From IMG/VR virus record IMGVR_UViG_3300018019_000008: a stretch of 64,000 nt of DNA; one strand, written 5' to 3'. The stretch is from an uncultured virus (IMG/VR IMGVR_UViG_3300018019_000008). Lineage: Duplodnaviria; Heunggongvirae; Uroviricota; Caudoviricetes. Of this stretch, positions 20,713 through 64,000 are shown one piece after another; the stretch's first letter is position 1; every line of letters starts with the position of its first letter. The position numbers and the translations under genes are program-made. A model generated the notes under the pieces. It ran no database searches and had not been told where the DNA came from. It saw only the letters and a program-made list of their open reading frames with translations.

Positions 20713-21246
20713 TCATATTTTTGTTGATTTTTCCACATCCTTATGCGGACATATTCCACCATTTCGTTCTTTTCCTAATTGGCAATCAGCACATAATACT
20801 TGAAGTCCTAAATTATCTGGAAATCCATGAAGTTTAAGCCAATAATAAAATCGCCAACCACCAGATATTTTAAGTTCTTTTCGCTGTTTTGCGCCGTCAT
20901 TATTAATATGGTCTATTGTAAGAAAATAAAGTTCTGGTTCGCCACAACAAGCACATTTCATAGTTCCGCTACTATAATGAGAAATAGTTTCAATAACTAA
21001 CTCTTTACGCCATTTCTTGGACTTTTTTCTTAATTCTTCTTTGTTATTTTTTCTATAGTTCTTTGAACGAAGATGTTGTTTATCTAATGTTTTACCATAA
21101 TGAAAACGATTTATTTCATTTTGGCAATCTTTACAATATGGTCTTACTCTTGGATTTACTCTCGGTCTAATTGTTCCACTTTTGGGTGATTTATGAAATT
21201 CAGATATATCTTTTATTTTATGACATTTTGCACATTCTTTCATCAC
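20713..21246 (-). CDS. HNH endonuclease (subfamily A) with N-terminal Zn finger
   Basis: CACCGE...FLTIDHINNDG...LQVLCADC; promoter at ~21279-21295. Confidence 0.85.
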   Translation of the reverse strand: MMKECAKCHKIKDISEFHKSPKSGTIRPRVNPRVRPYCKDCQNEINRFHYGKTLDKQHLRSKNYRKNNKEELRKKSKKWRKELVIETISHYSSGTMKCACCGEPELYFLTIDHINNDGAKQRKELKISGGWRFYYWLKLHGFPDNLGLQVLCADCQLGKERNGGICPHKDVEKSTKI

Positions 21247-32833: not shown

Positions 32834-33200
32834 AAATACATCTATCCGTCTAGGTGACACTCTTGATGAATTAATCGACCAATACGCCGCATTTATGAAT
32901 ATAGACCGTTCAAAAGTTATCAGAACAGTATTAATGGAAGGTCTTTTTCAAAAAACTAAAGCGGCTCAATTTCAACATTTTGAAGATTGGTTAGCCAAGA
33001 GAGAAATATTTGAACTAATGAAAGAATGTGAGAAATGTGGAAAAAAAGAAAATTTAGGATTCTATCACATAGACGGTAACATAGACAATAATGCATCAAG
33101 CAACATAGTTACTCTATGCGTCCCATGCCTAAACGCTTTTCAAAATTGGAAGCTAAAACAAAATATAAAAGAGAAGTTTATTGAATGGTTTTTTGCTTAA
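32826..33200 (+). CDS. Ribbon-helix-helix regulator fused to an HNH-like Zn domain
   Basis: TSIRLGDTLDELIDQYA..MNIDRSKVIR (RHH) then CEKC...HIDGN..NN...N...LC..C. The start is probably TTG 32826 after GGTGG. Confidence 0.7.
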   Translation: MNKNTSIRLGDTLDELIDQYAAFMNIDRSKVIRTVLMEGLFQKTKAAQFQHFEDWLAKREIFELMKECEKCGKKENLGFYHIDGNIDNNASSNIVTLCVPCLNAFQNWKLKQNIKEKFIEWFFA

Positions 33201-38898: not shown

Positions 38899-39372
38899 GT
38901 GATTAGAATGGTTCACTATAAAGATTTGGAAAAACGAAAACAATATATGAAAAATTATTATATAAAAAATAAGGAACATCTTAAACAACTTGGAAAAGAT
39001 TGGAGAAAAAAACATAAAAGCGAAAATCTTAAAAGAATTAAAAAGTGGAGAGAGCAAAACAAAGAACAAACCAAAATAAATAATGCAAAATCAGCATATA
39101 AACGAATTAGAGAAACAAGAATTGAAATATTAAATCTACTTGGAAATAAATGCTCAATTTGTGGTTATTCCGACCCCAGAGCGTTACAGATTGACCATGT
39201 TAACGGCGGCGGACGCAAAGAACTGAGAAAATTCAGTAATTACTTTATACATTTAAAATTTGTTCTAACTCAAATTAAAGCTGGGTCTAAAGATTATCAG
39301 TTATTATGCGCTAATCATAATGCGATAAAACGATATGAGAATGAACGCCCTATTTCTCGGTTTGAATCTTAA
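38899..39372 (+). CDS. HNH endonuclease (subfamily B)
   Basis: CSICG...ALQIDHVNGGG...KDYQLLCANHN. Confidence 0.85.
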   Translation: MIRMVHYKDLEKRKQYMKNYYIKNKEHLKQLGKDWRKKHKSENLKRIKKWREQNKEQTKINNAKSAYKRIRETRIEILNLLGNKCSICGYSDPRALQIDHVNGGGRKELRKFSNYFIHLKFVLTQIKAGSKDYQLLCANHNAIKRYENERPISRFES

Positions 39373-42923: not shown

Positions 42924-43469
42924 ATGTTCAAAAACAAATCCGATAAGAAAGCATATTGCGACAAATATTATCAAAACAATAAAGAAGAATTGAGAAAACA
43001 ACACCAACTTTATTACCAGACTCATAAAGAGAAATATAGAGCTGGATATAGAAAATGGGCTAAGAACAATCCAAACAAAGTTAAAGATAGAGCTAAGAAA
43101 TATAGAGACAAGAACAAAGACAAAATCAATAAGAGAAGAAGAGAAAACTATTACAAATATATCGAGAACCAAAAAAAATATAGAACCAACTTAAAGCTAA
43201 AAGTTTTTATTCATTATTGTAACGGTCAACCTTATTGTCAATGCCCAAAATGCAATGAGACTAATGTAAAGTTCTTAACTCTTGACCATATCAACGGCGG
43301 TGGGAACGAGCAACGAAGAAAACTTGGTAGTAGTACAGCAATCTATAAATGGATTATAGAAAATAATTTTCCAGAAGGGTACCAAGTGTTATGTGCTAAT
43401 TGTAATTTTGGCAAACGAATGTATGGAGTATGCCCACATAATGACTCTAATACAAAAATTGAGAAATGA
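42924..43469 (+). CDS. HNH endonuclease (subfamily A)
   Basis: FLTLDHINGGG...FPEGYQVLCANCN; promoter at 42873-42889. Confidence 0.85.
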   Translation: MFKNKSDKKAYCDKYYQNNKEELRKQHQLYYQTHKEKYRAGYRKWAKNNPNKVKDRAKKYRDKNKDKINKRRRENYYKYIENQKKYRTNLKLKVFIHYCNGQPYCQCPKCNETNVKFLTLDHINGGGNEQRRKLGSSTAIYKWIIENNFPEGYQVLCANCNFGKRMYGVCPHNDSNTKIEK

Positions 43470-45752: not shown

Positions 45753-45828
45753 GATTCAACACCAAATGATTTGAAAGGTAAAACTAGTATTTAAAGGTAT
45801 CGGTGTTAACTAACAAATTTTGATGGGT

Positions 45829-48800
45829 TTAATACAAAAATCGGTCCATCATGCATATTCCGATAATATCTCGGTCCCAATCTAGACCCAAAGGTTCGAG
45901 AATTTGGATGAAGGTGTTCTTTAAGAATTCATTGTATTTGGTAACATCTATCTCAGATGGTTTGGCTAATTTTGTTGGCTTTACCTTTAGTTTATCTGTG
46001 GTTTTGACGAAAGAAATCTCTGACCCTTCACCTATATCATAACCAGCCGCTTTAAGCTGTTTAGCCGCCTTAATATGTTGCGGGTCGCCGTCATACTCGT
46101 CAATATCTTTAGAAGCTGTTACGTGAAATGCTAAGTTCTCCATATCCTCAAAGTTTCGTGTTTTTATTTTGGTATAAGTATCCTTCACTAGTTTTAATAT
46201 GGCTTTTTTTACTGGCTTTATATCTTCATCATTATGAACCTGAGCCAATAGTTTCTTAGTCTCATCAAACGGAGTCCTAATTATATGAGGCGTATGCTTC
46301 TTCTTACCAGTTAAACCTTTAACGTCAACAGTACCATCTTTTAGAACACCAAAGTAATTTTTTTTACGTCCGCTGAGGCAAGCGTATCTATACTCTTTAT
46401 CTAGTTCAAAGTCAATATCGAACTTTTCCTTAGCCCAAATTAGTAATTCTTCCAATATTTCTGGGGCTGGGTCCTTAATGAATATGGAGTCCGTATCACC
46501 GTAAATAACATTCAAGCCTAATTCTTGACCATGTTTTATAGTCTGAGTGATTATCCATCGTCCAATTCCTGTCACATACTCAGGTACAGGGGGACAATAT
46601 AGAACAAAAGTCTCGTCTCCGAAGACCCCGTATGACGCATTACAGATAACTTTAATGCTCTGCTCTGAAACAGAATACCATGTTCTAAAAGGATTAGTCT
46701 TGTCTTTTGCTTGTTGCTTATACCATTTGACTCTTAAATCCTTTAGTGTTCCAATCAATTGACCTTCGATAGCCCTGTTTTTCTTGCATATCCAATGTTG
46801 CATCCCAGCGACCTTGTTAGAATAACACTCATACATAGTGAGCAATTCTATGACAATTGGCACAAAGTAACTGTAATTCTTTCCAATCCACTCTTCTAAG
46901 AGTGATATAAAGATTTCTTCCTTCGAAGTCTCTTCTGCCACTAATGTGGTGTATTTCAAAAGTTCGTTCATCAGGATTTCCACATCGTTCGCATTGTGCA
47001 CCTTTAGATTTAATAAATCGTTGGCGAAGTTCTTTTCGTTTTCTATTTTGCCATTCTCTTGAATATTTTTTTCTTGATTCTCTACGAATTGGGTCGGTTT
47101 TAAGTTTGTTTCTATATTTAAGGCTGTCTTTCTTTCGTTGAAGTTTGAATGAAGAAGTTTCCATAGATTTGTGATAATTTTCTCGTTGCCGTTTATTGAT
47201 GGTGGATTTGTTTTTACTTCTGTAGTCTCTCTGGTATTCTCGGTTTCGTTTTCTATATTCTTCATCAGTTTCATTAGGTTTTCTTGCTGGCATTGGATAT
47301 TCAACTCTTTATTCTGTAATATAGAATGTAACATCACCCATATAAATCTTTTGGTATCATTACTCATTTTTTGTATAAATTGACCATGCGGACAATTGAC
47401 TGTTGAATACCCTAAGTTCCAATTCTTCATTATGCTTGGATATAAGCTGGCGAAGTCTCCAACTTTAACGTTGAAATGGACACCAGCTACAGGATTCACA
47501 ACTATTGCGCCTTTATACTTTTTGCCTTTAACAAGTGCGGTAGTGGTTGTTGTTCCCTTCATAGCAATAATGTCTTCAGAGCGCGGAATAAGATAGCCCC
47601 GTTTTACATGTTCATAATAAATGAAACTACGAATCCATTGAGAAATGGGTTTTCTACTAACCATTTCAATAGGCATATAGCCTAATCGAGCCAACACAAG
47701 AATTAGGTTCATTACCACGTTATCGCTGTAAGTTGTCAATTCTATTGTAAGGTTGGCATCGCCTAAACAGTAAGTAATAAGCTCTTCATAGGTCATCTCA
47801 CCAACCCATTCATGTTCGCCCTTGATTTTTCCCTTTTTGATTAATGCTTTAGAAACTTCGTCAAGATTAACGTTCTTATATTTCTGTTGGAACGCATAAT
47901 TTTGCATTGACCTAATCTGGAAAAACTTGTACAAATCAATATGAATGGCATCTTTCCAGTAGGCAATTTTCTCCTTTGGTTTTATAGTTATCGGAATCTC
48001 ACTTATTGAAACCCCTAATCTAAGTGCTCGGTTCATTAAATAGGGAAGGTCAAAGTCATCGCCGTTGAAAGTAACGATGAATGGATATTGGCTACCAAAG
48101 GCGAATACTGCCCTTAAAAGTTCTGCCTCATCAGAGAACCAAGTAATAATGGCATCTGTAGGACAAGAAAATTGCTTACCTTCTTGTATTAATACAAAAG
48201 CATATTTTTCGCCTCTATTGGTTTCAAAACAAACACAAATTACTGGTAAGTTAGCACTACGCGGACTTGGAACTTTCATCCCTTCATTCCATACTTCAAT
48301 GTCTATGGAAACACGCTTAAATTCTGGTGCGGGATACTCAAGAAGCCGAGCTAATTGTTCACAGATAACTTTATTATATGGTTCTGGCTTGGCTAATTCT
48401 ACTAAATTCTCAACTCGTTTTTCAGCCGCCGCTTCAAGGTTCAAAATGAGCGTTCCACTTTCTCGAACGTAAGGCATACCCATCTTGATGTTGTTATCGT
48501 AGACATATTGCATAGCGGGCTTTATATGATTTTCCCAAGCAATAACTTCGGTTTCCTTTTTATTGAAATCGCTAATTCTATTTGGACCATCAACCGTAAC
48601 TTTCCAAACTATTACTTTTTGGTCATTTAGAGCATCATAAAGTTCTACTTGTTCTTGTTTGATGATACCAGCAAAATTCTGTCTTTCCTTTGTGTAGAAG
48701 TAAGGCTTATATTCTCCATCAAAATAATATTCCAGTTTTTCCGTATCATTATTATAAAGAGAAAGAATGACACATTTTAGGTTATAATCATAATTAGCAC

Positions 48801-48831
48801 TTACTATGTACAACATGAGAACATACCCCAT
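45829..48831 (-). CDS. polB: Family B DNA polymerase (B1-like) with a ~184-aa in-frame insertion
   Basis: SIDIEV, TFNGDDFD, YCLGD, DFASLYPS, KVICNASYGVFG, IYGDTDS, KKNY. Confidence 0.93.
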   Translation of the reverse strand: MGYVLMLYIVSANYDYNLKCVILSLYNNDTEKLEYYFDGEYKPYFYTKERQNFAGIIKQEQVELYDALNDQKVIVWKVTVDGPNRISDFNKKETEVIAWENHIKPAMQYVYDNNIKMGMPYVRESGTLILNLEAAAEKRVENLVELAKPEPYNKVICEQLARLLEYPAPEFKRVSIDIEVWNEGMKVPSPRSANLPVICVCFETNRGEKYAFVLIQEGKQFSCPTDAIITWFSDEAELLRAVFAFGSQYPFIVTFNGDDFDLPYLMNRALRLGVSISEIPITIKPKEKIAYWKDAIHIDLYKFFQIRSMQNYAFQQKYKNVNLDEVSKALIKKGKIKGEHEWVGEMTYEELITYCLGDANLTIELTTYSDNVVMNLILVLARLGYMPIEMVSRKPISQWIRSFIYYEHVKRGYLIPRSEDIIAMKGTTTTTALVKGKKYKGAIVVNPVAGVHFNVKVGDFASLYPSIMKNWNLGYSTVNCPHGQFIQKMSNDTKRFIWVMLHSILQNKELNIQCQQENLMKLMKNIENETENTRETTEVKTNPPSINGNEKIITNLWKLLHSNFNERKTALNIETNLKPTQFVENQEKNIQENGKIENEKNFANDLLNLKVHNANDVEILMNELLKYTTLVAEETSKEEIFISLLEEWIGKNYSYFVPIVIELLTMYECYSNKVAGMQHWICKKNRAIEGQLIGTLKDLRVKWYKQQAKDKTNPFRTWYSVSEQSIKVICNASYGVFGDETFVLYCPPVPEYVTGIGRWIITQTIKHGQELGLNVIYGDTDSIFIKDPAPEILEELLIWAKEKFDIDFELDKEYRYACLSGRKKNYFGVLKDGTVDVKGLTGKKKHTPHIIRTPFDETKKLLAQVHNDEDIKPVKKAILKLVKDTYTKIKTRNFEDMENLAFHVTASKDIDEYDGDPQHIKAAKQLKAAGYDIGEGSEISFVKTTDKLKVKPTKLAKPSEIDVTKYNEFLKNTFIQILEPLGLDWDRDIIGICMMDRFLY
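46829..47293 (-). CDS. HNH endonuclease nested within polB in an alternative frame
   Basis: Basic N-terminus, CERCG, EIHHI, LQLLCANCH; internal promoter motif at 47339-47354. Confidence 0.85.
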   Translation of the reverse strand: MPARKPNETDEEYRKRNREYQRDYRSKNKSTINKRQRENYHKSMETSSFKLQRKKDSLKYRNKLKTDPIRRESRKKYSREWQNRKRKELRQRFIKSKGAQCERCGNPDERTFEIHHISGRRDFEGRNLYITLRRVDWKELQLLCANCHRIAHYV

Positions 48832-49255
48832 TATGTTTTCTACATCCCCATTGGCAATTCCAACAAAGGACCCTAAACCCTTCTGGAAAATTGTTTTTTC
48901 TTAACCAAATATAAAAAATCCAACCACCAATCAAATGCCCTAATACTTTTTTTCGGTGTTGATTTCCGCCACCGTTAATGTGGTCAATAGTAAGGAAATC
49001 AAGTTCTCTTTCGCCGCAACAAGCGCATTTAGGCGGATTACCACCATAATGAGATAAAACTTGAATAATAAGTTTTTGACGATATTTTTTTGAGTGGTTT
49101 CTTTGTATTATTTTATTTTTTTCTGGGTTTTTCTTTTTCCAATCCTTATTTTTGGCATTCATTTCTTTTTTATGAGCTTGATAATAATTTTTAGCATATT
49201 CTGGATGTTTTTCATACCAATTTTTTTGAGATAATTTCCCCTTTTCTGTCGTCAT
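48794..49255 (-). CDS. HNH endonuclease (subfamily A), overlapping the polB start
   Basis: CACCGE...FLTIDHINGGG...FPEGFRVLCWNC; promoter at 49292-49308. Confidence 0.85.
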   Translation of the reverse strand: MTTEKGKLSQKNWYEKHPEYAKNYYQAHKKEMNAKNKDWKKKNPEKNKIIQRNHSKKYRQKLIIQVLSHYGGNPPKCACCGERELDFLTIDHINGGGNQHRKKVLGHLIGGWIFYIWLRKNNFPEGFRVLCWNCQWGCRKHNGVCSHVVHSKC

Positions 49256-49308
49256 AGTTTTAATACCTTATAGGTATATAACGCATTTCAAGTATTTAAG
49301 TCTTATGG

Positions 49309-50398: not shown

Positions 50399-50902
50399 AT
50401 GCAGAGCTTGTATTGGCAAAACTTCGACTTTTTTACCAGTTTTCTCAAGTTTTTTCCACATGTATTTACATTCGCACATATTCATGTCAACGGGCGGGAA
50501 TCCTATTCTCCAATCATAAAGGTCTCTTAGTTCATGAGTCCGCCATATACTTGTTCCGAACGCCGCATGGTCTTGTTTAGTATTTGAGTAATAAAGAGCT
50601 ACAGCCCCCACATTCTGGGATTTTTCGAGAATTTCTATAGCTTGTTCTATATATTGTGGCGGCAATATAGTATCGACATCGAGACAAAGAACATATTTTG
50701 TAGAAACAAATTCTAAGCCAAATCGTCTAGCAAACCAAAATGTAGTATTTTGCTGAAAAAGGGATGAAACTTTAAGTGATTCTCCGCCCCCTTTGTTGAT
50801 AACTATCGTTAAATACTTCGAGAGAATTTCTTTGTTTCCTTCTGCAAACTTTTCTACGATTTCTAGTTTTTCAAAAACAGGAATAACAATTGTTAAGTCC
50901 AT
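50381..50902 (-). CDS. GT2-family glycosyltransferase
   Basis: LTIVIPVF, ARRFGL, YVLCLDVD; coupled to the tail gene. Confidence 0.75.
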   Translation of the reverse strand: MDLTIVIPVFEKLEIVEKFAEGNKEILSKYLTIVINKGGGESLKVSSLFQQNTTFWFARRFGLEFVSTKYVLCLDVDTILPPQYIEQAIEILEKSQNVGAVALYYSNTKQDHAAFGTSIWRTHELRDLYDWRIGFPPVDMNMCECKYMWKKLEKTGKKVEVLPIQALHLKSNS

Positions 50903-53900
50903 TACGAATCTGGTCCTTTAAAGATTGCTTTTATTGTTCCACTTCCCAAAGCTGTAACCATAGTAAAAGGATTGGTTGGGTCTGAGAAGGTAATTTGTGA
51001 TGGGTTATCTGTCCACCATGTAACAAATGTGTCTTCGCATGTATTGGGATACACAAATTGAAGAGTCTTTCCCTCTATTTGGCTATAATGCCCATTATAA
51101 GGTAAAGTAACAAAAAGTGACCACGGATATTCTGTACCGAGCCACATTCCGCCTAAATCAATGCTACCAGTTGTTTGATTAAGAGATGTAAAGTAAATTG
51201 CTGGGTCAACTGGTTCAATATATTCTGGAATGATAGAAGCTGGACCCCAGATAAGTATAGCCGCTCTGCTTTCTCGGTCAAAAGTATGTACATCATAAGT
51301 ATCTTCTTCTTGTACTAGACATGCATCACCGCTTATATTCCAAGCGTAAAATCCTTGACTATTTGTTGGAAGGAAGAAATAAAATACGTGAACTCCATAA
51401 TTCACAACAACAGGATTTGGCAAACAACCACTATTTTCCGAAGGAAGAGGTATAGAAGTCGGTTTTTCATCCATATAGAGAATTCCCATATGGTCAAATT
51501 CTCCGCCGTGACTACCACCAGCATCAACACCCCAACTATCAACGAGACTTAAAACTGCAAAGTCTGTATAAGATACTTCGCTGTTATTAGCTTGAATATA
51601 GAGAGTGTATTTCCACGGCTTTATCCAATTCATTGGGTCGAATTCCGCATCAAATTCTGAGACCCAAACATTTCCTACAATGTTATGAATATAATCTTCC
51701 AAATTCACTTTAACGTGATTTTGCAAAGTTATTTCCATAAGATGTTTCTCGTCATTGCTCATTCTGCCGTCATACTCAATGTCCAAAACGCACTCGTTCC
51801 AAAGATAGCTATCAACTTCGGCTGGTTGATTAACCCACTTTGGAATCATAGGTGGATGAGTATCGTCTCTATCAAAATTTAATATGTGAACTAATTTATG
51901 ATTGTCTAATGTTATGGCATTATTGGCAAACGGATTAGAAGAATAGTTTGGTTCATTGGCAGAAGAACCAGCATAAGAGTTTACATCAATTGTGGCTGTT
52001 ACCGTCCACCATCTAACGTATCTACCATCTTGCTCGATGTATTCATATGTATATTCTTTTTCCGTAATCCATCCGCTAAGGTACCATTGATATTTAGGCG
52101 GTTGAGATTGGCTTGGATGACCTGTTTCTGCTTGTGTGTGATGTGAATCTACATAGTTATATTGCAAATAGAAATTAGTGTAATAGTTAGAACCAGCAGT
52201 CGAAGCGTAACCATAAATCGACTCGAAAACATCTTTTTCTGCATCCGATAATCTAAATGTAGCATTGATTCGTTTAGGTTGAAGAACATATGAACCAGCA
52301 TCCAAATATTCTGATTCAGCCAATGGAGTTGGTCTAATAGCTGGGTCGCATTTTTGAGCTTCCTTCCAAGTTAATGGAGAAACCCATAAATCTCCACTTG
52401 GATTATTAATGTGCAATGTTGCTGTTGCATAAGCTGGTGGCGGAGCTTGACGTACTAAAACACAATCCATACCTTCGGTTTTTGATATGTTCTTCTTCTT
52501 GAAATCTGTGTTTATAAAATCAAATGATGAACCTCTTCCTGTAAACCTTACGCTTAATGAGGGAGATTTTGTTAGTCCACTAAAGATTAGTTTTGTACTT
52601 AAACTATAAGTTGGTTTTATGGCAAGTCTCTTATATAAATTGCTAATTCCATAAAATGACCATTGGTGCACTTGCCAAAGACGAACATCCATACTATAAA
52701 GTGCTCCAAGTTTAGGTATATTCCACAACCGCACGTCCATACCGTAAGTTTGCGTTACGCCAAGTTCCTTGAACAAAACACTAAGCGAATCTGTTTTTGT
52801 TATTCCGAGCTTCTTGAATAGAACACCAATAGTGTCTATCTTGGTAACTCCGAGCTTCTTAAATAAAACGCTAATCGAGTCGGTGTCGCTTATATTAAGT
52901 TTTTTAAGCAAAACGCTGGTTGAGTCGGTTTTCTTTATGGCAAGTTCCTTGAACAAAACACTAAGCGAATCTGTTTTTGTTATTCCGAGCTTCTTGAATA
53001 GAACACCAATAGTGTCTATCTTGGTAACTCCGAGCTTCTTAAATAAGGTGTTAATTGAATCAGTCTCAGTTATATCCAACTTCTTTAATTGAGCACTCAT
53101 AACATCAGTTTTAGTTTTAAGTTTCTTTAATACAACACTTATTGTATCTGTTGGATAATGTGTTATTGATGTTGTTAAACCAACAAACCTAACATTGTAA
53201 GGGTTTGAACTTTGATTACCATATAAGAGCATAATTGTGCCATTATAAGGATAATAACAAGAAGAAAAGCCATTATTGCTTGTCAAAGCTGTTTCACTTG
53301 TTATCCATGCTGTTACTGAACCCCATGCACTTGAGCTATATTCCCTATAGTAAAGATAGTTTGCTGTCGGAGCATCGCCCCAAAAGACAAATAAATTACC
53401 GTTTGCGGCTGCTGTTATCGTAGGGTCATAACCAGCAACAGCACTACTTTGAATAGTATATTCTGCACCAAAAGAATTACCAGAGTATGTATATTTAATA
53501 TATTGTAAATTGTTAGAAGTATTAATCCAAGCTATGCTTACGTTATCTCCAACAGCAATAGAACTAACACGGTTATTTGAATTCACATCCGTAGAAGAAG
53601 TAACTGTTGCGTTCCAACCCGAACCTGTATAGCTTTCCAAAGAGATTAAATTTGAGCCATAAGACCAAATACAAGCCATTTTTCCTGATGTTAAAGGTAT
53701 AACAGCAACGTAATAACTAGCTTGTGCTGATGAAGATAATTGATATGGAAATCCTGATGGTGGACTACCCCATGTTCCAGTACTACCAAGATTACCACTT
53801 TTAATTACATAAGGCGTAAAACTTGTACCACTATTAGCGGAATCTTCATAACTTATCAAAACGTACCCGTTAGAATCAACACAAATACTCGGATAGCCAC

Positions 53901-54264
53901 AATAATTATTTGTCGTTGAAACTGTCTGTTCACCAGCATTCCATGTTATTGTACCGTTACTATTAGGAGTACCACTTCTATAATAAAGGGCAACGTGAAC
54001 AGACCACACATAATAAAAGTATGTGCCATCGAACCATATGGAGAAATAGTTTCCATTGGTAGAAGCTCTTATTACCCCAGAAGCAGTTGCTCCAAGTGTC
54101 CACGTTGTACCATCAGGACTTGTATAATAAAGTATGTTAGTTCCGTTACTAAAGAATACCCAATATAAACCATTAGCATAAAAGCATTTACGTTGATGAG
54201 GAAGAGAAGTTGATTGACTAGTTGCACTCGTAGTAACTGTTGAGGGTCCAATAGTTGTTGTCAT
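50902..54264 (-). CDS. Tail/baseplate-associated protein: propeller-like N-terminus, 15-aa repeats, C-terminal beta domains
   Basis: YTSPDGTTW Asp-box-like motif, S/T/N/G-rich region, repeat stalk, position in the tail module. Confidence 0.65.
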   Translation of the reverse strand: MTTTIGPSTVTTSATSQSTSLPHQRKCFYANGLYWVFFSNGTNILYYTSPDGTTWTLGATASGVIRASTNGNYFSIWFDGTYFYYVWSVHVALYYRSGTPNSNGTITWNAGEQTVSTTNNYCGYPSICVDSNGYVLISYEDSANSGTSFTPYVIKSGNLGSTGTWGSPPSGFPYQLSSSAQASYYVAVIPLTSGKMACIWSYGSNLISLESYTGSGWNATVTSSTDVNSNNRVSSIAVGDNVSIAWINTSNNLQYIKYTYSGNSFGAEYTIQSSAVAGYDPTITAAANGNLFVFWGDAPTANYLYYREYSSSAWGSVTAWITSETALTSNNGFSSCYYPYNGTIMLLYGNQSSNPYNVRFVGLTTSITHYPTDTISVVLKKLKTKTDVMSAQLKKLDITETDSINTLFKKLGVTKIDTIGVLFKKLGITKTDSLSVLFKELAIKKTDSTSVLLKKLNISDTDSISVLFKKLGVTKIDTIGVLFKKLGITKTDSLSVLFKELGVTQTYGMDVRLWNIPKLGALYSMDVRLWQVHQWSFYGISNLYKRLAIKPTYSLSTKLIFSGLTKSPSLSVRFTGRGSSFDFINTDFKKKNISKTEGMDCVLVRQAPPPAYATATLHINNPSGDLWVSPLTWKEAQKCDPAIRPTPLAESEYLDAGSYVLQPKRINATFRLSDAEKDVFESIYGYASTAGSNYYTNFYLQYNYVDSHHTQAETGHPSQSQPPKYQWYLSGWITEKEYTYEYIEQDGRYVRWWTVTATIDVNSYAGSSANEPNYSSNPFANNAITLDNHKLVHILNFDRDDTHPPMIPKWVNQPAEVDSYLWNECVLDIEYDGRMSNDEKHLMEITLQNHVKVNLEDYIHNIVGNVWVSEFDAEFDPMNWIKPWKYTLYIQANNSEVSYTDFAVLSLVDSWGVDAGGSHGGEFDHMGILYMDEKPTSIPLPSENSGCLPNPVVVNYGVHVFYFFLPTNSQGFYAWNISGDACLVQEEDTYDVHTFDRESRAAILIWGPASIIPEYIEPVDPAIYFTSLNQTTGSIDLGGMWLGTEYPWSLFVTLPYNGHYSQIEGKTLQFVYPNTCEDTFVTWWTDNPSQITFSDPTNPFTMVTALGSGTIKAIFKGPDS
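52761..53046. repeat. Exact 106-bp direct repeat (52761-52866 and 52941-53046) within a 45-bp-period array
   Basis: Identical sequence at 180-bp spacing. Confidence 0.9.
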
Positions 54265-54275
54265 TTCATATTCCC

Positions 54276-57200
54276 CTAAGTATTTCCATCGCTAAGTACG
54301 TTTCGCTGGCACTTTATATTGAAGAAGTGAGCTACACATCTGTAATATGGCGGATTATCTGGGGTTGGATGTGAGCCAGACGCTAAGATGTATATAGGTC
54401 GAACTGTTATACTGCTCAAATATTGTGAAGTGCCTTGTTGATTAGGTGTATTGAATGATGTGTAAACCGCGCTATAAACTGGTGGGTTATTTATGTCTGT
54501 GTTTGCTATAGTGAAAAGAACTTCTGGGAGTGCATTTCCATATTGGACACCGTTAAATTCTACTTGTATTGTAGCTTTGTAATGAGTGTTAGATAAAATA
54601 CCGCACATAAATTTAGCTTTACCGTTAGTAATCATAGTCGATACTGGAACATATAACGCCTCATTGTATCCCCCTTCACCATAAGGAGCACCAGTATAGT
54701 AATCTGACGCTTGAGCAGAAAAACAAGCATATACATAGAATTCTCCTTTTGCTACACAAACTATTCTAAAGAAGAACCCTGTTCCGTATCCAAGATAAGC
54801 ACTTTCGCCGTTAGCTGTATTTACTCCTGAAGATGGATTAGACATCATTCCAACATCAATATAATCTCCTATATTCCATATAGTACCACTACTGCCTGAC
54901 TTGCTATATGGCGGATTAGCTGGTTCATAAACTTCAAAGGTTGTAGTAAACTTTGGCTCTTGTGTTAATGGAATATCAGTTGCTTGTCCCTGTAAATTGT
55001 TTCCACCAGCATCGAAACATTTGTTACTATATCTTGCTTCTTGCCATACTATTCCTATGTTAGTTTTATCTCCACCCCAGATAGCGCAATTAGAAGTATC
55101 GGCTTTCCATCCAGCGTCATTACTTGGTGAATAACCACTTGGACCGTTTGTTTGTGGGAACCATTGTGGGTCACTTGAACCTTGACCTGTAGTTACTTCC
55201 TCGTTTTTCGCCGTTTTACTAAAGAGAGTTGATAATTTGTCTGGATTAACTTTATTCGATTGTGCTCCTTCAGCCGCCCAATCAGTTGCGATAACACCCA
55301 TTATTCCCAATGTCTTCAATTGCTTATAAACATCTTTCCAAACATTGCTGATGTCGAGATAAGGTGCCTGACAAGTTAATGTTATGTTTTCACCATTTTC
55401 ATCAACTTTTGCTTCGGTATTCCAAATTCTATATGCGCTTGTTAGGTTGTTTGGAATTGCATTAGGTACTAACCCAGACAGAACATCATTAAGTACAACG
55501 TCATCTCCAACATCGTAAATATTGGGGTTTGAAGAGTTAAAACCATGTTCATATGTGTCTCTTCCTATTTTACATGTTATTGCATTCTTTCTTTTCGGGC
55601 TTGCATCAATCTTCAATCTAACTTTAGCATATCTATCAGCGATTCTGCCACCAGCAACTTGTTTCTGGGTGAAAATATCTTCGAAGAATCCCTGAATTTC
55701 ATCCATAGCTTCTGAATCATTTGACCATATTGAGCTAGAATCTTCTTGATTCTTTCCTTCGCCACTTCCTATTACTTGAACTCTTTGATAAGTATCTCGT
55801 GAAGTTCGCTGGTATTTAACTGATTGCATATTTGTTCCTGTTACAAACGAGACAGAAGTGGACTTGTCGCTTCCTACTCTTGGACCCATATGGAAGTCTC
55901 CGATACAATTAAGAGGGTCATGAACTGATGGAGATTCTATCCACCATTCAAATGGCAAATAATCGTCATTTACCATCGTACCTATATCGAAAAGAATGTC
56001 CATTAATCTGTTTTTTGGAATGTTGGTTGGACCAATCATGAAAAGGTCACCTTGCGTATATCCCGAAGGATTTCCCGTTTGCTCGCTGTATGATATGAGA
56101 TTTAAGTCAATATCAGCATCAGCTAAATAGATATATGGACCCCCGCTATAAACAGGTCCAATGTATGCGTAACAAATCCCGTTACCAACTCCATCTCCGC
56201 CGTCAGGAGTATATAAAAGAATTACATCATTTTGTTTAGGAGCATAAACCCCGTTAGTTGCATCGACACGCCATTCATAAACGTAAAAAGGACTTTCATA
56301 TGTACCTATGTCAACATAATTGTTCTGTCCATCATCAATAAGTATTCCTATAAAATTTTGTGGAGCAAAAGAATTAGCATAAACTTGCAATCCTAAATCT
56401 GTATTAACAGTTGGACTATATGTTTGACTATAATCAATGTTAAAGTTTCCTTCTATGAAACTAGCGTATGCAGAAGAAACATACATATGGTCGATTGGAT
56501 TAGTAAATGTAGTTTCTGTAGGATAAGGAGAAGTAGGAATCCCACTACCATTAAACGGAATTATATTTCCAGTAGATATTGGAGTAATCGAATTATCTCC
56601 CTCAATAATTAACAATCCATATGTTCCTTGAATAAAGGAGACAGTAATAGTTTGAGAATAAGTGCCTGAAAGATTACTATATACCCCAACAATACCATTA
56701 CTGCTAATACCCCAGAAATATACAATCCAAGTTCCAGTATAAGAATTAAGGTCTATTTCAAACCATTCCTGAGTTAAACTTCCGTTTGCAAAGATAACTT
56801 TAACTAAATCGGTTGTATTTGTATCTTGCAAAGTTGAAGTATCTAGAATTAAACTAAAATTATTATAGAATTTTACGTTACCTTGCGAAGTTGTTAGTAT
56901 TGTTTCTCCCGCATTTACCTGAGCATAAGTAGCGGTATATTCCTCTGCCGTACCTGTTTCTGTGAATTCTATTTTATATTCCTTTGTTTTTTGTACTGCT
57001 GAAGGGTCTGTTACGTTATTTGGTAGTAATGCTTCATCCCATCTTACCCAATACTTTACGGGGTCCGTTCTATAGATGTAGGTTTGAGTAATTTCCCATC
57101 CATGATTATAATTATCGCTTTTAGATTCGCTGATTGATGTTCCCAATCCCGCCGCTGGGTCAGCATAGATTTTTACATTTGTCATATTTCGTGGGTGCCA

Positions 57201-60200
57201 GCTATGTAAAATATCTGGATAAATATTTTGAAGGTGACACATAGCTTGGTTAGCAGTAGTGTAAGAATGAACAAGCGGATTTTGTAGAGTAATTGTGTTT
57301 CCATTTACCGATTCTATAACATTGATTTCACAATTTGTTGGATTGCCATTCGGGTCGAAAGTATCCATGATTCCTATATTCATACTTGGTTGGAAGAAGG
57401 CATTTGGAGCACTCGAAAGAACTATTGTTGATGAGCCTTTAGATGCATTTGAAGCCAAAGTTATAGGTTGATATGTATTAACTAAAGTTATTTCTGGTCC
57501 AAGTCCAGCAGATATAACTCCTAAAGTGTATGTTTCTGATTGAGTATTTATATCCATTGCATCGAGAAAAGTAGCGTAAGTAGAACCACTTCCATATACT
57601 TGTAAATTCGGGTCATACTCAGCTTCAAAATCAACTGTATCTATAGTTCCAGCATTATTGAGGGAAGTAAATTGAGCGAGTAAAACTGGTGTGCCGCTGG
57701 TAATATTGTACAGTTGTACATATCCAGAACCAGCAGAAAGAGAAGCTATTAACCTAATTTGAATCCATGTACCATTAATAATAGGGAAATCAGTCCAACT
57801 TGTACCCCATTCTCCATTTAGAACAAGATTACCATTTTCCATAAGGAAAAATCTCATGTATTGTTGATTGGAATTTGCATATAAACTGGTTTCAACTCCA
57901 ACAACGGCGGCGCAAGATGTCATATTTGGATTTGGACGAGCGACAGATGAACTATTATAAAGTTTCAATAGATTAATCCAACCATAAGATAAAGTTCCAT
58001 TGAAGTTAAGTAAAACTTGCCCGATTTGGAATTGAGCATATGCTGGATTACCTGATGTTTCAATGCTTCCAACAATAGAAAACTTTACTTGTGCGCTCAT
58101 CCAATCATCGTAAGATGTCAAATATGAAGATATGTCAGTTGGTGCAAACAAGTTTGCCCAAGATGTGCTTGAAAATTGATTTCCAGAATCAGCAACTTGT
58201 ACCCAACTACCTGAGTGCGCTACCCATAAGAATGCTTGAACCCGTATATTTTGTATAGCACCGTTTCCGCCTATGTTATTTTGGATTCTTGCTGATACGT
58301 TAAAGTGACAAGGACTTGTAGGTACACATGCAGTACCATTCGTACTGAAAGCATTAGCTAAGTTATCAAATGTGCAATAGTCAGCAGAAGCCCATGTAGG
58401 AACTACAGTACCTAAAACATAAATATGGTTATCATCTTCATCACTACTTGTTCTAACATATGGTGCCGTACCAGCCGTAAGCCAATGGTTACTACCAGCC
58501 TGATTCCAAGTAGCCGCCATTACATTGCCATTTTTGCTCTGATTATGCGGTGGCGGAGCACGAACCCAAGCATCTACTTGAACAAAAGATGTGGGATTAA
58601 TATCTTCCTCAAAATACCATTTTTGACCGTTAGCAGTACATTGTATTTGTTGGCATCCAGTTCCTTGTATTTGTTGTGTAGTGTTTGTTGAGTCTTGAGC
58701 GTTTCCACCAAAAGTGCTCCAAGTATTGGCTGTACTTGATTGAGCAGTAAAATCATCAATCCATACTCCATAACCATCAAAAGATGCTGTGTCGATGAAG
58801 ATATTTACAACTTGTTTCGTATTGTTTGTCCAAGCATTTGCTTTAGCATCCTCAAAAATCCAACCAGTTTGAGTAGAAACTATAACAATGGGAGATAATG
58901 TATTGTCGCTATAGACTAAATAATACTGGAATCGTTTACCTTGAACTTGACCTCTATGCCAGAACCCTAAACTTGTACAATTATTATACACTACAGACGG
59001 ATTAAAGTTTGCTGATTGTGTAGCTGTACATTCTTCAGGAACATTAAAACTAGATTCTGTGCATGGCATATATAAGTCCCATATTCCGCTATGTGCATTA
59101 GTGCCATCATTATAAATTTCGGCATTAGAAAGAAGCCATCCCGTACTATCGCCAGTTTCAAAGCCGCCGTTAATAAATTGTTGTCCGCCACTTGTAAAAG
59201 CGTCCATATTATTGGAATAAATTTCTGCTAATCCCTCAAAAGCATAAGATATTGCCATATAACGATATGTAAATGTATCCCCAGCATTAGTAATTGGACA
59301 ACTCCAAATTAATTCACTTTGTTTCATAGTTCCAGCATTATAGATATAATATGTAAGGGTTGTACCACTTCTTATAACCTGAACCCAATATGTAGTACCT
59401 ATAGAAAGATTACTTATTCCATTAACAAACGTTCCAGCGAAATATGTTTCTGTACCATAACTACTGCCTTTATATCTAACTTCTGGGTATAATACCCCGC
59501 CTATGTTAATAATATCGAAAGTAGTGAAAGCACCAGCTTCTTGCTCTATTGTGTAAAAGTTTGCTATTTGATTAGCCAAACACCACGGTATAAATGCTGG
59601 CGCATTATGTGGAGATGTTGATGTAGAACAAGGTTGAGAAGTTCCTATATTAAAGGCAAAACTTTCATTAATAGTTCCGTTTATAGGACCAGTTTCAGTT
59701 GCGTTTATTCCTTGTCTGTAGAAATATGCAATTTTACTTGAATTATCGCTTTGATAAGAATAAAACGTAAGTTGGTCTTGTCCAGCATCTAAAGCAAGAT
59801 AAGGTGGGTTTGGTGTTGATGCCTCATAGAGAGTATAGCCATTAAAAAGTTCTAGTCCACCCGAAGTTGTAATATGATAAGCGGCTGGAAATGAATTAAT
59901 ATGCTCTCTGCTTTCAAGATAAACCCCCATACATGGGATTTCATTAAATTGTATATTAACCCAATCTGGATTATGACCAGAAGTTTTAGTAGGATTTGGG
60001 TAAATAGTTCCGCCACTTGCATATCCAACTTGGAGATAACAGTAACGAATGTAAGTAGAAAGAAGACCTAATTCTACGAATTTTATTCTCGCGTTATTTA
60101 CATCGCCAACATTCGTAAGAACATGTGAAAGGTCAATAGTATATATTCTCCAAGCTAATTTATTTATGTCATAAATACTTCCAAACGTGAGACTTGCAAG

Positions 60201-61237: not shown

Positions 61238-61621
61238 CTACCTATATTTCTTTCTATATTCTTTATTTTCATATCGTTTTATCCAATTGCAGTTAGCACA
61301 AAGAAGTTGATAATCCTTACTACCAAGTTTAATTTGTTCAAGAATATAATAAAAATAAGTTGCACAACCATTCTTAAAATGGGTTCTTTCTTTATTTCCG
61401 CCGCCGTTAATATGGTCAATCTGTAATGCTCTCCAATCTGTCATTCCATCAGGAACAGCACAATTAAGATTAGAACACTTACTACCGAGTAGTTCAATAA
61501 TTTTCATTCTTATTTCATGAGTTCTTTCTCGCTGTTGTTTTGCTCGTTCTTCTCTATGATTTTTATTATATCTTTGCATATTGTTTAATCCATCATTTAT
61601 TTTTCTACTCATATTTATCAA
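61238..61621 (-). CDS. HNH endonuclease (subfamily B)
   Basis: RALQIDHINGGG...KDYQLLCANCNWIKRYEN; close paralog of 38899..39372. Confidence 0.85.
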   Translation of the reverse strand: MINMSRKINDGLNNMQRYNKNHREERAKQQRERTHEIRMKIIELLGSKCSNLNCAVPDGMTDWRALQIDHINGGGNKERTHFKNGCATYFYYILEQIKLGSKDYQLLCANCNWIKRYENKEYRKKYR

Positions 61622-63628: not shown

Positions 63629-64000
63629 TTAAGGACGAACTTTTTTTCTTTTTAAAAATCGATGATGCAATAACCCGTGGCATTTCGCACATAAAGTTAT
63701 GGTTTTCAAAGGTGAATAACTAATCTCATGACATAATAAATTTTTGGTTGAACCACAAACTTCACAATTAGGCTTCAATTTCTTAAAGCCATTTGCATCT
63801 TGTTGTTCATTAGCCAATATCTGTAATTTTTCTGATATATCTTTTGGAGTTTGAGAAATTATTTCAAGTTTTAATTTTGCATATTGTTCTTTTGAGAAGA
63901 AGTGTTTTCGGCATTTTTCTGAGCAAAATTGTTGTATTCCAGCCCTATAATTAGGATTTTGAATAAATTCCTTTTTACATTCTGGATTTTGACATATTAG
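63629..64000 (-). CDS. HNH-like Zn-finger protein (partial, begins beyond the right edge)
   Basis: The frame is open from 64000: CQNPECKKEF...FCSEKC...CEVCG...HEISY...LCAKCH. Confidence 0.7.
   Translation of the reverse strand, partial: LICQNPECKKEFIQNPNYRAGIQQFCSEKCRKHFFSKEQYAKLKLEIISQTPKDISEKLQILANEQQDANGFKKLKPNCEVCGSTKNLLCHEISYSPLKTITLCAKCHGLLHHRFLKRKKVRP

What the first reader, a model, noticed from the sequence alone, without database searches (positions are those of the whole stretch)
46829..47385. HNH gene overprinted inside polB: a mobile insertion that seems neither intein nor intron and leaves the polymerase frame open
Seen: about 552 nt (~184 codons) separate STVNCPHG from ECYSNKVAGMQHWIC. 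From recall, B1-type polymerases have a contiguous CxHxEC...HWxC just after the DFASLYPS motif. The insert encodes a complete 154-aa HNH endonuclease in another frame on the same strand. It has its own consensus promoter (CCAAAAGATTTATATG, 47339-47354), and its TGA stop lands on the 3' junction. The polB frame has no stop across the insert, although its translation there looks like off-frame sequence. There are no intein termini, and I found no bulge-helix-bulge or group I core. Inference: stop codons have been purged so that the polymerase is made with a dispensable loop, letting a homing endonuclease sit in an essential gene by dual coding rather than by splicing or splitting. An alternative is restart at ATG 46836 (MYEC...), or RNA-level removal using the weak junction pairing AUUUAUAC/GUAUGAGU.
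Basis: partly seen in the sequence, partly recalled or inferred. Interest (0 to 1): 0.9.

Follow-up and report, generated by a model that had tools for sequence, protein, structure and literature searches.

The report
Hidden homing endonuclease inside viral polymerase
A selfish DNA-cutting enzyme gene sits out of frame inside the DNA polymerase gene of an archaeal-type virus, and the polymerase reading frame across it is kept free of stop codons, so the polymerase is probably made with an extra 184-residue loop; this trick was first described in 2025 for a bacterial-virus methylase.

Summary
The polB ORF (45829..48816/48831, minus strand) carries a 552-nt insert (46831..47382). Close homologues lack it. 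A 154-aa HNH gene (46829..47293) lies in it in another frame, and its TGA stop spans the 3' junction.

Comparison shows the stop-free polB frame is selected, not chance:
- Eight distinct relatives of this HNH are nested the same way, always with host frame = HNH frame +1.
- They sit in five host gene families: polB, ERCC4, CobA/CobO/BtuR, DUF6899 and a methyltransferase.
- Free-standing relatives carry 6-12 stops in that frame.
- Codon-usage simulation gives P(0 stops) = 0.0015-0.035 per element.
- The host-frame peptide is no more conserved (25.7%) than the non-coding third frame (25.2%), against 39.7% for the HNH frame.
- A filled and an empty polB allele are 99% identical, and element and host similarities disagree, so the element is mobile.

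No intein, group I/II or bulge-helix-bulge signal was found.

Best reading (0.7): a translated-through homing element. This architecture is already published as the ShiLan domain of actinophage methylases (PMC11855218). This is therefore a new variant: archaeal-virus setting, a replicative polymerase as host, several host gene families, and an internal TATA-like motif. No expression data were available.

The parts
45829..48816 (-). Family B DNA polymerase gene (PolB1-like) containing the insert. The ORF listing extends it to an upstream ATG at 48831.
   Evidence: PF00136 E=2.5e-38, PF03104; best solved relative is 1s5j, S. solfataricus PolB1, E=6e-170. Z 43.5, rmsd 2.7, 698 residues aligned. 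The start at MLYIVSA comes from homologues.
47383..48816 (-). polB part 1: exonuclease domain, N-terminal palm and motif A (DFASLYPS), ending ...NCPHG.
   Evidence: query 3-476 aligns with 1s5j residues 17-501.
46831..47382 (-). 552-nt mobile insert, 184 codons, stop-free in the polB frame. The boundary is uncertain by about one codon.
   Evidence: for coordinates and stop counts per frame; absent from 10 of 17 aligned homologues. for the filled/empty allele pair.
47294..47382 (-). 5' leader of the insert (about 30 host-frame codons) upstream of the HNH start. It is stop-free only in the host frame.
   Evidence: 3 stops in each of the other two frames over these codons..
47339..47354 (-). BRE/TATA-like motif CCAAAAGATTTATATG, about 53 nt upstream of the HNH ATG. 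Putative internal archaeal promoter (inferred).
   Evidence: ACCAAAAGATTTATATGG is identical in L001, with close variants in L006 and L003. No tool here scores archaeal promoters.
46829..47293 (-). HNH homing-endonuclease gene, 154 aa, frame +2 relative to polB. It has a K/R/E-rich N-terminal half and a C-terminal CxxC...HH...N...CxxCH core.
   Evidence: PF01844 E=4.5e-8. C101, C104, H115, H116, C144, N146, C147 and H148 are invariant in 8 relatives.
46829..46831 (-). HNH TGA stop codon spanning the 3' junction (T from the insert, GA from the host Glu codon).
   Evidence: The same arrangement occurs in L001, L004 and L006. In L003, L007 and L015 the HNH stop also lies where recognisable host sequence resumes; their exact junctions were not mapped.
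45829..46830 (-). polB part 2: ECYSNKVAGMQHWIC, fingers (motif B KVICNASYG), motif C YGDTDS and thumb.
   Evidence: query 669-993 aligns with 1s5j residues 513-838.

Best explanation
The 552-nt insert is a homing-type mobile element that consists almost entirely of an HNH endonuclease gene.

Proposed mechanism:
- The endonuclease is made from its own start codon, probably from a TATA-like promoter in the first 90 nt of the element (inferred).
- It cuts insert-free polB alleles near NCPH|EEC (inferred).
- Repair then copies the element in. The few changed host codons next to the insert (E to G, KT to YS) fit co-conversion and would protect the filled allele from re-cutting (inferred).

The element has no splicing machinery. 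Instead its length is a multiple of three, and the frame HNH+1 is kept free of stop codons. Ribosomes translating polB therefore read straight through and make a full-length polymerase with a 184-residue loop. The loop has an arbitrary sequence and sits in a short surface turn between motif A and the fingers.

Shown: selection acts on the HNH protein and, in the host frame, only against stop codons. Inferred: the polymerase tolerates the loop.

Only frame HNH+1 can be purged this way. A stop there needs T at HNH codon position 2, which occurs only in Leu, Ile, Met, Val and Phe codons, and synonymous choice can avoid the stop (inference from the genetic code). The architecture matches the ShiLan domain of actinophage methylases.
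For: (1) Insert and HNH are as described.

(2) Unbiased search with the HNH frame in metagenomes (184 confirmed, best 80 kept):
- 7 of the 8 best loci (L001-L008) have frame +1 open over the whole HNH and running into a long host ORF.
- Over all 80 loci, 10 are covered in +1 and 0 in +2.
- L160, from a Ca. Bathyarchaeota MAG contig, adds a further nested element.

(3) Host genes by Pfam: polB (L001, L004, L006), DUF6899 (L003), CobA_CobO_BtuR (L007), ERCC4 (L015) and Methyltransf_11 (L160).

(4) Simulation: 0 stops observed in all 7 elements tested.
- Under window codon usage, 2.5-5.9 stops are expected, with P(0) = 0.0015-0.035.
- Under within-gene synonymous shuffles, P(0) = 0.0055-0.78.

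(5) Controls: six free-standing HNH-like ORFs in the same window have 6-12 stops in +1. The free-standing relative L005 (51% identical) has 11.

(6) Over 21 element pairs, amino-acid identity is 39.7% in the HNH frame, 25.7% in the host frame and 25.2% in the third frame.

(7) Mobility:
- P0002 (filled) and P0005 (empty) are identical at 448 of 451 residues upstream and nearly identical downstream.
- Exon and insert identities disagree: P0002/L006 93% vs 33%, L006/P0020 61% vs 60%, P0019/P0020 89% vs 32%.

(8) Filled polB alleles stay under purifying selection. Exon 1 dN/dS is 0.12 for the window vs L006, and all columns invariant across 116 homologues are kept.

(9) The insert falls between residues 501 and 513 of solved PolB1 1s5j. 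In the AF2 model the core superposes on 1s5j (Z 43.5). The insert is helices of pLDDT 65-80 with disordered stretches at 534-546 and 564-596.

(10) No splicing machinery was detected:
- No Hint/intein Pfam hit in polB, although the MCM intein in the same window is detected.
- No Rfam hit.
- BHB scores are not above controls.

(11) Published precedent: PMC11855218 (abstract, introduction, results and discussion read).
Against: - No transcript, protein or activity data exist.
- The within-gene shuffle is weak for some elements (P(0) = 0.78 for L015, 0.13 for L007, 0.10 for L004). The statistical case rests on the codon-usage null, on the free-standing controls and on recurrence.
- The elements are related, so their P values are not independent.
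- For five insert-bearing homologues (P0002, P0017, P0019, P0020, P0034) and for the second-site insert in P0064, only the host-frame protein was available. Their HNH frames are inferred from shadow motifs.
- The protein search that found them covered only 550-1750 aa, so alleles split by a stop could not appear there.
- 184 extra residues next to the polymerase active site might impair function.
- The AF2 insert geometry rests on about 6 sequences, and coordinates could not be inspected.
- Two further loci with +1 open (L024, L032) and two genome loci (L163 in +1, L179 in +2) are distant HNHs. I take them as chance open frames. L163 and L179 are GC-rich (0.59, 0.70). GC was not measured for L024 and L032.
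Confidence: 0.7

Rival explanations
1. The insert is removed from the mRNA, either as an archaeal bulge-helix-bulge intron cut by the host splicing endonuclease or as an unrecognised self-splicing intron. On this reading the open frame is incidental or helps coupled translation.
For: Homing-endonuclease genes commonly live in introns, and archaeal BHB introns can carry them (established knowledge, recalled). Rfam covers only curated families. The best BHB-like candidates in L003 and L007 are matched or exceeded by only 10% and 6% of control pairs.
Against: - No Rfam match at E<=10 in window 45500-49500 or at E<=1 in six related loci.
- The best in-frame BHB-like scores are not above 200 control position pairs in any of 7 elements (fractions 0.06-1.0). 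Their positions are not at the junctions and differ between elements.
- In the window the unrestricted best candidates would excise 580 or 536 nt, which breaks the frame.
- Only about 90 nt lie outside the HNH ORF. By recall, a group I core needs roughly 200 nt or more.
- Splicing would not explain the purged stops, the multiple-of-three length or the fixed frame relation seen in 8 of 8 nested elements.
Confidence: 0.12
2. The insert is translated and then removed from the protein, as a non-canonical intein carrying an out-of-frame endonuclease or by proteolysis and re-ligation.
For: The open host frame is what an intein needs. Inteins with out-of-frame endonucleases are reported: the dnaX intein (bioRxiv 10.64898/2026.09.14.751524; abstract and one discussion section read) and actinophage inteins (bioRxiv 10.1101/2025.01.02.630785; passages only). 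The invariant Cys669 lies one residue after the junction.
Against: - No Hint/Intein_splicing hit in polB, while the MCM intein in the same window is found by the same scan.
- The first insert residue is Q, E, A or Q and the last is Y, S, Y or L in the four polB elements, followed by E. By recall, canonical inteins have C/S/A first, N last, and C/S/T following.
- The HNH ORF runs to the last base, leaving no room for separate C-terminal splicing blocks.
- Host-frame conservation equals that of the non-coding frame (25.7% vs 25.2%), so there are no conserved splicing motifs.
Confidence: 0.05
3. The open polB frame is a by-product of composition. The purine-rich, T-poor coding strand of a K/R/E-rich gene simply has few stops.
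For: AT skew reaches -0.48 on the plus strand over the insert, so the coding strand is T-poor. Within-gene synonymous shuffles give P(0) up to 0.78 for L015 and 0.066 for the window.
Against: - The third frame has 23 stops over the insert.
- Six free-standing HNH-like genes of the same genome have 6-12 stops in +1. L005 has 11.
- The codon-usage null gives P(0) = 0.003 for the window.
- Recurrence in 8 distinct elements and 5 host gene families, always continuous with the host frame on both sides.
Confidence: 0.03
4. The filled polB is made as two polypeptides (restart at ATG 46836, MYEC...), or it is a disabled allele in a defective genome.
For: Split polymerase genes next to free-standing endonuclease genes are known in T4-like phages (recalled). 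An ATG lies two codons before the junction in the window and in L001.
Against: - The Met is absent in L006 (..FTAYEC) and L004 (..LQGLEC).
- There is no stop to end an N-terminal fragment.
- Exon 1 dN/dS is 0.12 between two filled alleles.
- All columns invariant across 116 homologues, including D459/Y464 (motif A), K727/N731 (motif B) and D779-S782 of motif C, are kept.
Confidence: 0.05

Closest known systems
ShiLan domain / hidden out-of-frame HNH insertions in actinobacteriophage DNA methylases (Arsenault, Gosselin & Gogarten 2025, Genes 16:178, PMC11855218; earlier PMC9957025, seen as a search listing only)
   Same: - An insertion in a host ORF that adds no stop codon in the host frame.
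- An HNH gene in the third frame on the same strand.
- The HNH stop lies within the last bases of the insert (TAAC there, T|GA here).
- No intron or intein features are found computationally.
- Distribution among close alleles is disjunct.
- The in-frame product is predicted as a low-confidence helical or looped appendage.
   Different: - The setting here is an archaeal-type virus with MCM, archaeal-type primase and RadA.
- The host gene is the replicative PolB, not a dispensable methylase.
- The same HNH clade occupies at least 5 host gene families and 2 polB sites.
- The HNH start lies about 90 nt into the insert behind a TATA-like motif, rather than a GTG at 18 nt with proposed leaderless translation.
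- tblastn of this HNH against 50,697 phage records gave 12 hits, none to a mycobacteriophage, so there is no detectable close homology.
- Stop purging and the lack of host-frame amino-acid selection are quantified here.
Inteins, including those with out-of-frame homing endonucleases (cyanobacterial dnaX intein, bioRxiv 10.64898/2026.09.14.751524)
   Same: In-frame insertion at a conserved site of a replication gene, translated with the host. The endonuclease can be encoded in an overlapping frame. Selection is low on the host-frame peptide over the overlap.
   Different: No Hint splicing domain and no canonical terminal residues. Nothing suggests the insert can excise itself.
Free-standing homing endonuclease genes that split host genes in T4-like phages, such as mobE in nrdA or split gene 43 (recalled, no paper read)
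   Same: An endonuclease gene with its own expression signals, inserted in an essential replication gene without an intron or intein.
   Different: Those insertions break the host gene into two ORFs and two polypeptides. Here the host ORF is continuous.
Rickettsia palindromic elements and other small repeats inserted in frame into protein-coding genes (recalled, no paper read)
   Same: Selfish DNA tolerated inside ORFs because it is translated as an extra surface segment.
   Different: Those elements are short, non-coding repeats without an endonuclease gene. Here the insert is itself a gene read in another frame.
Group I introns and archaeal BHB introns carrying homing endonuclease genes
   Same: A homing endonuclease ORF inside a conserved gene, with allele-to-allele spread.
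   Different: No ribozyme or BHB signal. Introns need neither a stop-free host frame nor a length that is a multiple of three.

Membership tests
ShiLan-type translated-through insertion with hidden out-of-frame HNH | Insertion inside a host ORF that is absent from close homologues | tested here: met
   10 of 17 aligned polB homologues lack it. P0005 is 99% identical to P0002 apart from the insert.
ShiLan-type translated-through insertion with hidden out-of-frame HNH | No stop codon when read in the host frame | tested here: met
   0 stops in 184 codons; the same holds in 8 distinct nested relatives.
ShiLan-type translated-through insertion with hidden out-of-frame HNH | Complete HNH endonuclease ORF in another frame of the same strand, ending at the 3' end of the insert | tested here: met
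   The frame offset of +2 matches the 'third frame' described in PMC11855218.
ShiLan-type translated-through insertion with hidden out-of-frame HNH | Sequence homology of the HNH to the ShiLan or Pacc40 HNH | tested here: not met
   tblastn against the phage collection at E<=1e-3 gave 12 records, none an actinophage. The kind is defined by architecture, so this bears on ancestry only.
ShiLan-type translated-through insertion with hidden out-of-frame HNH | The insert stays in the mature mRNA and protein | not testable with these tools
This is untested for ShiLan as well.
Intein | Hint/splicing domain in the host frame | tested here: not met
   no intein family hit in polB; the MCM of the same window hits Intein_splicing and LAGLIDADG_3 and serves as a positive control.
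Intein | Canonical terminal residues (C/S/A first, N last, C/S/T at +1; recalled) | tested here: not met
   first residues are Q, E, A, Q; last residues are Y, S, Y, L; the next residue is E.
Group I / group II intron | Match to a ribozyme covariance model | tested here: not met
   no intron family at E<=10 (window) or E<=1 (6 loci). Sensitivity is limited to curated Rfam models.
Archaeal BHB intron | Bulge-helix-bulge motif formed by the two junctions, with an excision that preserves the frame | tested here: not met
   best scores are not above control position pairs in 7 of 7 elements. This was my own simple scanner, not a validated tool.
HNH endonuclease (PF01844) | Profile match plus conserved His/Asn/His and two CxxC pairs | tested here: met
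   E=4.5e-8, 33.6 bits against a cut-off of 21.4. C101, C104, H115, H116, C144, N146, C147 and H148 are invariant.
HNH endonuclease (PF01844) | Site-specific cleavage of the empty allele (homing activity) | not testable with these tools
   Inferred from the filled/empty alleles and from the host/element incongruence.
Family B DNA polymerase, archaeal PolB1-like | Exonuclease and polymerase domains with motifs A, B and C, and similarity to a solved PolB1 | tested here: met
   1s5j, E=6e-170; Z 43.5, rmsd 2.7, 698 aligned.
Host gene split by a free-standing endonuclease gene | Host gene divided into two separate ORFs | tested here: not met
   a single continuous ORF.

The most novel reading that the evidence does not exclude
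The stop-free host frame is needed because the insert is removed during or after translation by a mechanism that uses neither a Hint domain nor a known ribozyme. That would be a new kind of excision, shared by this HNH element family across polB, ERCC4, CobO, DUF6899 and methyltransferase hosts. The evidence does not exclude this, because no RNA or protein data exist. It is disfavoured because the host-frame peptide shows no conservation above the non-coding frame.
Probability: 0.07. Interest if true: 0.92.

Novelty: new variant of a known kind. Interest (0 to 1): 0.62.

Why it matters
Homing endonucleases are thought to survive in essential genes only by riding on self-splicing introns or inteins, or by splitting the gene. 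A third solution, being translated through as a harmless loop while the endonuclease is read in an overlapping frame, has so far been proposed for a dispensable phage methylase (PMC11855218).

This locus and its relatives extend that proposal in four ways:
- The same strategy operates in archaeal-type viruses.
- It operates in a replicative DNA polymerase next to motif A.
- One HNH clade uses it in at least five host gene families.
- The host frame is constrained only against stop codons, not for amino-acid sequence.

The filled and empty alleles (P0002 and P0005) and the compact 552-nt element give a clean system for testing the idea. The locus also shows how overprinted genes escape gene callers: only 2 HNH homologues were found as called proteins. 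It marks loop positions in PolB, XPF-type nucleases and other enzymes that may tolerate about 180 extra residues.

Tried and rejected
- Whole-genome search: no genome is held for this window.
- Viral-contig scans with single-sequence queries of the junction region and of the HNH found no relatives.
- A viral-contig scan with the polB alignment gave 79 loci. The best is L081, 52% identical and insert-free on a 112-kb viral contig. None is close enough for nucleotide-level junction mapping.
- The HNH protein search found only P0121 and P0122. Nested genes are evidently not called by gene finders.
- Earlier scan notes: none exist for this window.
- The dS for polB exon 2 was saturated, so no dN/dS ratio was obtained.
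- Model coordinates are not exposed. I could not measure whether the insert points away from the DNA-binding cleft.
- The restart-at-ATG idea was rejected because the Met is not conserved.
- The junction pairing AUUUAUAC/GUAUGAGU was not distinguishable from control pairs.
- Literature searches for an archaeal or polB case found none in the held library. The library lacks most subscription journals.
- I did not use the third homologue search (shorter lengths) to look for split polB alleles. Contig-truncated fragments could not be told apart from true splits without genomic context.
Full report
**What is there**

On the minus strand, one ORF (45829..48831, 1000 aa) encodes a family B DNA polymerase. 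Homologues begin at MLYIVSA, so the real start is probably 48816. Its nearest solved relative is Sulfolobus solfataricus PolB1:
- By sequence, 1s5j matches at E=6e-170, in two stretches: query 3-476 with chain 17-501, and query 669-993 with chain 513-838.
- An AlphaFold2 model built on 116 homologues (mean pLDDT 85.5) superposes on 1s5j with Z 43.5, rmsd 2.7 Å and 698 residues aligned.

Between ...STVNCPHG and ECYSNKVAGMQHWIC lie exactly 184 codons (window 46831..47382). They contain 0 stops in the polB frame, 23 in the second frame and 4 in the third.

The third frame holds a 154-aa ORF (46829..47293) that matches Pfam HNH (PF01844, E=4.5e-8). Its TGA spans the 3' junction. The motif CCAAAAGATTTATATG is at 47339..47354, about 53 nt before the HNH ATG.

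**Context**

The window has no tRNA genes. It encodes an MCM helicase with a LAGLIDADG intein, a primase small subunit, a RadA/Rad51 homologue, a dCMP deaminase, a resolvase-like nuclease and glycosyltransferases. No whole genome is held for it.

A 52%-identical, insert-free polB lies on a 112-kb IMG/VR viral contig (L081). More distant homologues are labelled Bathyarchaeota by their sources. I read the window as part of a large archaeal-type virus or virus-like element. This is an inference from gene content.

tblastn with the nested HNH finds at least seven further weak HNH-like regions in the window.

**Is the insert an insertion?**

Of the 120 best polB homologues listed, 113 are 594-905 aa long. 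Seven are 955 aa or longer, including the window's own protein.

I aligned 17 sequences:
- Ten read NCPH-xx-C...HW(I/V)C without a gap.
- Six, including the window, have a stop-free insert of 140-216 residues at the same site.
- P0064 has a similar insert at a different polB site. It carries the same host-frame shadow motifs (..DVEILM.., VPIVTELFT).

P0002 (filled) and P0005 (empty) are identical at 448 of 451 residues upstream and nearly identical downstream. They differ only next to the insert: H-EE-CKT against H-G[insert]Y-E-CYS.

**Is the open frame selected?**

I searched JGI metagenome contigs with an alignment in the HNH frame, which does not depend on the state of the host frame. There were 184 confirmed matches, and the best 80 were kept.

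- Of the eight best loci (L001-L008), seven have frame HNH+1 open across the whole HNH and running into a long ORF. Over all 80 loci, ten are covered in +1 and none in +2.
- L001/L002 and L007/L008 are near-duplicates.
- L024 and L032 are distant partial HNH matches. Their covering frames translate to Ala/Arg/Gly/Pro-rich strings, which I take as chance.
- A scan of species-representative genomes added L160, on a contig of a Candidatus Bathyarchaeota MAG. It is nested in +1. The other 25 loci are distant, mostly bacterial, HNH genes. Two of them are covered by an open frame, both in GC-rich DNA: L163 in +1 (GC 0.59) and L179 in +2 (GC 0.70).

Pfam names the covering ORFs:

| Locus | Host gene family |
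|---|---|
| L001, L004, L006 | DNA_pol_B |
| L003 | DUF6899 |
| L007 | CobA_CobO_BtuR |
| L015 | ERCC4, with the insert between GDYVFGDEI and IAIERK |
| L160 | Methyltransf_11 |

This gives eight distinct nested elements in five host gene families, always with host frame = HNH frame +1.

Controls:
- L005 is a free-standing relative, 51% identical. It has 11 stops in +1 over 101 codons.
- Six free-standing HNH-like ORFs of the window itself have 6-12 stops in +1.

Simulation (2000 replicates per element, 7 elements):

| Null model | Expected stops in +1 | P(0 stops) |
|---|---|---|
| Resampling synonymous codons from the window's codon usage | 2.5-5.9 | 0.0015-0.035 (0.003 for the window) |
| Permuting each gene's own codons (conservative, because the gene's codon choice is already purged) | 0.22-2.9 | 0.0055-0.78 (0.066 for the window) |

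The elements are related, so these values are not independent. Recurrence across host genes together with the free-standing controls still makes chance an unlikely account.

**What does selection see?**

I took codon alignments of the seven elements and scored 21 pairs in all three frames. Mean amino-acid identity was:
- 39.7% in the HNH frame
- 25.7% in the host frame
- 25.2% in the stop-riddled third frame

The host-frame peptide is therefore no better conserved than non-coding translation. It is constrained only to stay open.

The HNH zinc and catalytic residues are invariant in eight relatives (C101, C104, H115, H116, C144, N146, C147, H148).

Filled polB alleles remain under purifying selection. 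Exon 1 dN/dS is 0.12 between the window and L006. Exon 2 has dN 0.098 with dS saturated.

**Mobility**

Host and element similarities disagree:

| Pair | Exon identity | Insert identity (host frame) |
|---|---|---|
| P0002 / L006 | 93% | 33% |
| L006 / P0020 | 61% | 60% |
| P0019 / P0020 | 89% | 32% |
| Window / L001 | 47% | 52% |

Together with the filled/empty pair, this indicates repeated horizontal movement into the same site. That fits homing. Cleavage itself was not tested.

**Is it spliced?**

- Pfam finds no Hint or intein domain in polB. The same library detects the MCM intein in this window.
- The terminal residues are not intein-like.
- Rfam gives no intron match in the window region at E<=10 or in six related loci at E<=1.
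- My bulge-helix-bulge scanner finds nothing better than control position pairs in any of seven elements. Candidate positions are inconsistent or break the frame.
- Only about 90 nt of the insert lie outside the HNH ORF.
- The proposed restart Met is absent in L006 and L004.

None of these alternatives explains the purged stops, the multiple-of-three length or the fixed frame relation.

**Where does the loop sit?**

The insert replaces an 11-residue segment of 1s5j, between chain residues 501 and 513. This lies in a Cys/His-rich turn after motif A.

In the model, the insert is a set of helices with pLDDT 65-80 and disordered stretches at 534-546 and 564-596.

In L015 the insert lies between the GD and ERK elements of the ERCC4 motif. 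From recall of Hef/XPF sequences, that position is a hairpin turn.

**Expression of the HNH**

ACCAAAAGATTTATATGG is identical in the window and L001, with close variants in L006 and L003. An ATA triplet 5-8 nt before the ATG is invariant in 7 of 7 elements.

This fits an internal archaeal BRE/TATA promoter. A second TATA-like stretch about 30 nt before the ATG could give a leaderless mRNA. Both readings are from sequence alone.

**Comparison with what is known**

A full-text search led to Arsenault, Gosselin & Gogarten 2025 (PMC11855218). I read its abstract, introduction, results and discussion.

Their ShiLan domain is a 202-aa, stop-free, in-frame insertion in an actinophage DNA methylase. 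It encodes an HNH in the third frame, with the stop inside the last four bases. It shows no intron or intein features, has a disjunct distribution, and forms a predicted hairpin-like appendage. The authors also propose that it is not spliced, and they call for RT-PCR. A second case, Pacc40, lies in another methylase.

The present element has the same architecture, so the kind is known.

It differs in these ways:
- The setting is an archaeal-type virus.
- The host gene is a replicative polymerase.
- One HNH clade sits in five host gene families and at two polB sites.
- There is a 90-nt leader with a TATA-like motif.
- There is no detectable homology to actinophage sequences: tblastn against 50,697 phage records gave 12 hits, none to an actinophage.

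The quantitative evidence for stop purging without amino-acid selection is also new here.

Searches for an archaeal or polB example found none in the held library. That library lacks most subscription journals.

Inteins with out-of-frame endonucleases are a neighbouring phenomenon that does keep splicing domains:
- dnaX (bioRxiv 10.64898/2026.09.14.751524; abstract and one discussion section read).
- Actinophage inteins (bioRxiv 10.1101/2025.01.02.630785; passages only).

**Verdict**

The best explanation is a ShiLan-like, translated-through homing element. Confidence is 0.7 overall. It is about 0.9 that this is a mobile HNH element whose host frame is kept open by selection. It is lower for the claim that no excision occurs at all, because no RNA or protein data could be obtained.

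Novelty: a new variant of a known kind. Interest: 0.62.

Noticed in passing
window 11209..14262 (-): The MCM helicase gene carries a canonical intein with a LAGLIDADG endonuclease (Pfam MCM, Intein_splicing and LAGLIDADG_3). The same genome therefore hosts both a classical intein and the spliceless HNH insert.
   Followed up: partly
window 42924..43469 (+), 48794..49255 (-), 38908..39372 (+), 61238..61612 (-), 20713..21243 (-), 3437..4069 (-), and weak hits near 33024..33116 and 63662..63877: There are many free-standing HNH-like genes in 64 kb (tblastn with the nested HNH, E from 2.5e-6 to 0.78). Six of them have 6-12 stops in frame +1. Two were scanned with Pfam and gave no hit.
   Followed up: partly
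window 48794..48831: The HNH-like ORF 48794..49255 ends inside the annotated start of polB. Homologues suggest polB really starts at 48816 (MLYIVSA), which leaves a short overlap.
   Followed up: partly
protein P0064 (no DNA available): A polB homologue carries a similar stop-free insert at a second site, after ..FLICAHRKT and before LIPN... It has the same host-frame shadow motifs (DVEILM, VPIVTELFT) as the HNH C-terminus.
   Followed up: partly
window 50902..54264 (-) and 54276..61226 (-): Two very large ORFs of 1120 and 2316 aa. The 2316-aa ORF has no Pfam match. The 1120-aa protein contains tandem copies of a ~10-residue unit (..KKLGITKTDS.. and similar), visible in its translation. They may be virion or fibre proteins.
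   Followed up: no
phage records OQ221549-OQ221553 (hits H1-H4): The nested HNH aligns over 90% of its length (25.6% identity, E=7e-6) with 'hypothetical protein' regions of crAss-like Bacteroides phages. I did not check whether these are nested or free-standing.
   Followed up: no
L006:1-8474: This locus is syntenic with the window: glycosyltransferase, polB, then a class II-type ribonucleotide reductase on the opposite strand. Its polB carries a different HNH lineage at the same site, only 43% identical to the window's HNH.
   Followed up: partly
L015:496-3205: The ERCC4 gene carrying the nested HNH sits beside RadA/Rad51-like and AAA ATPase genes. This resembles the replication and repair module of the window.
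   Followed up: no
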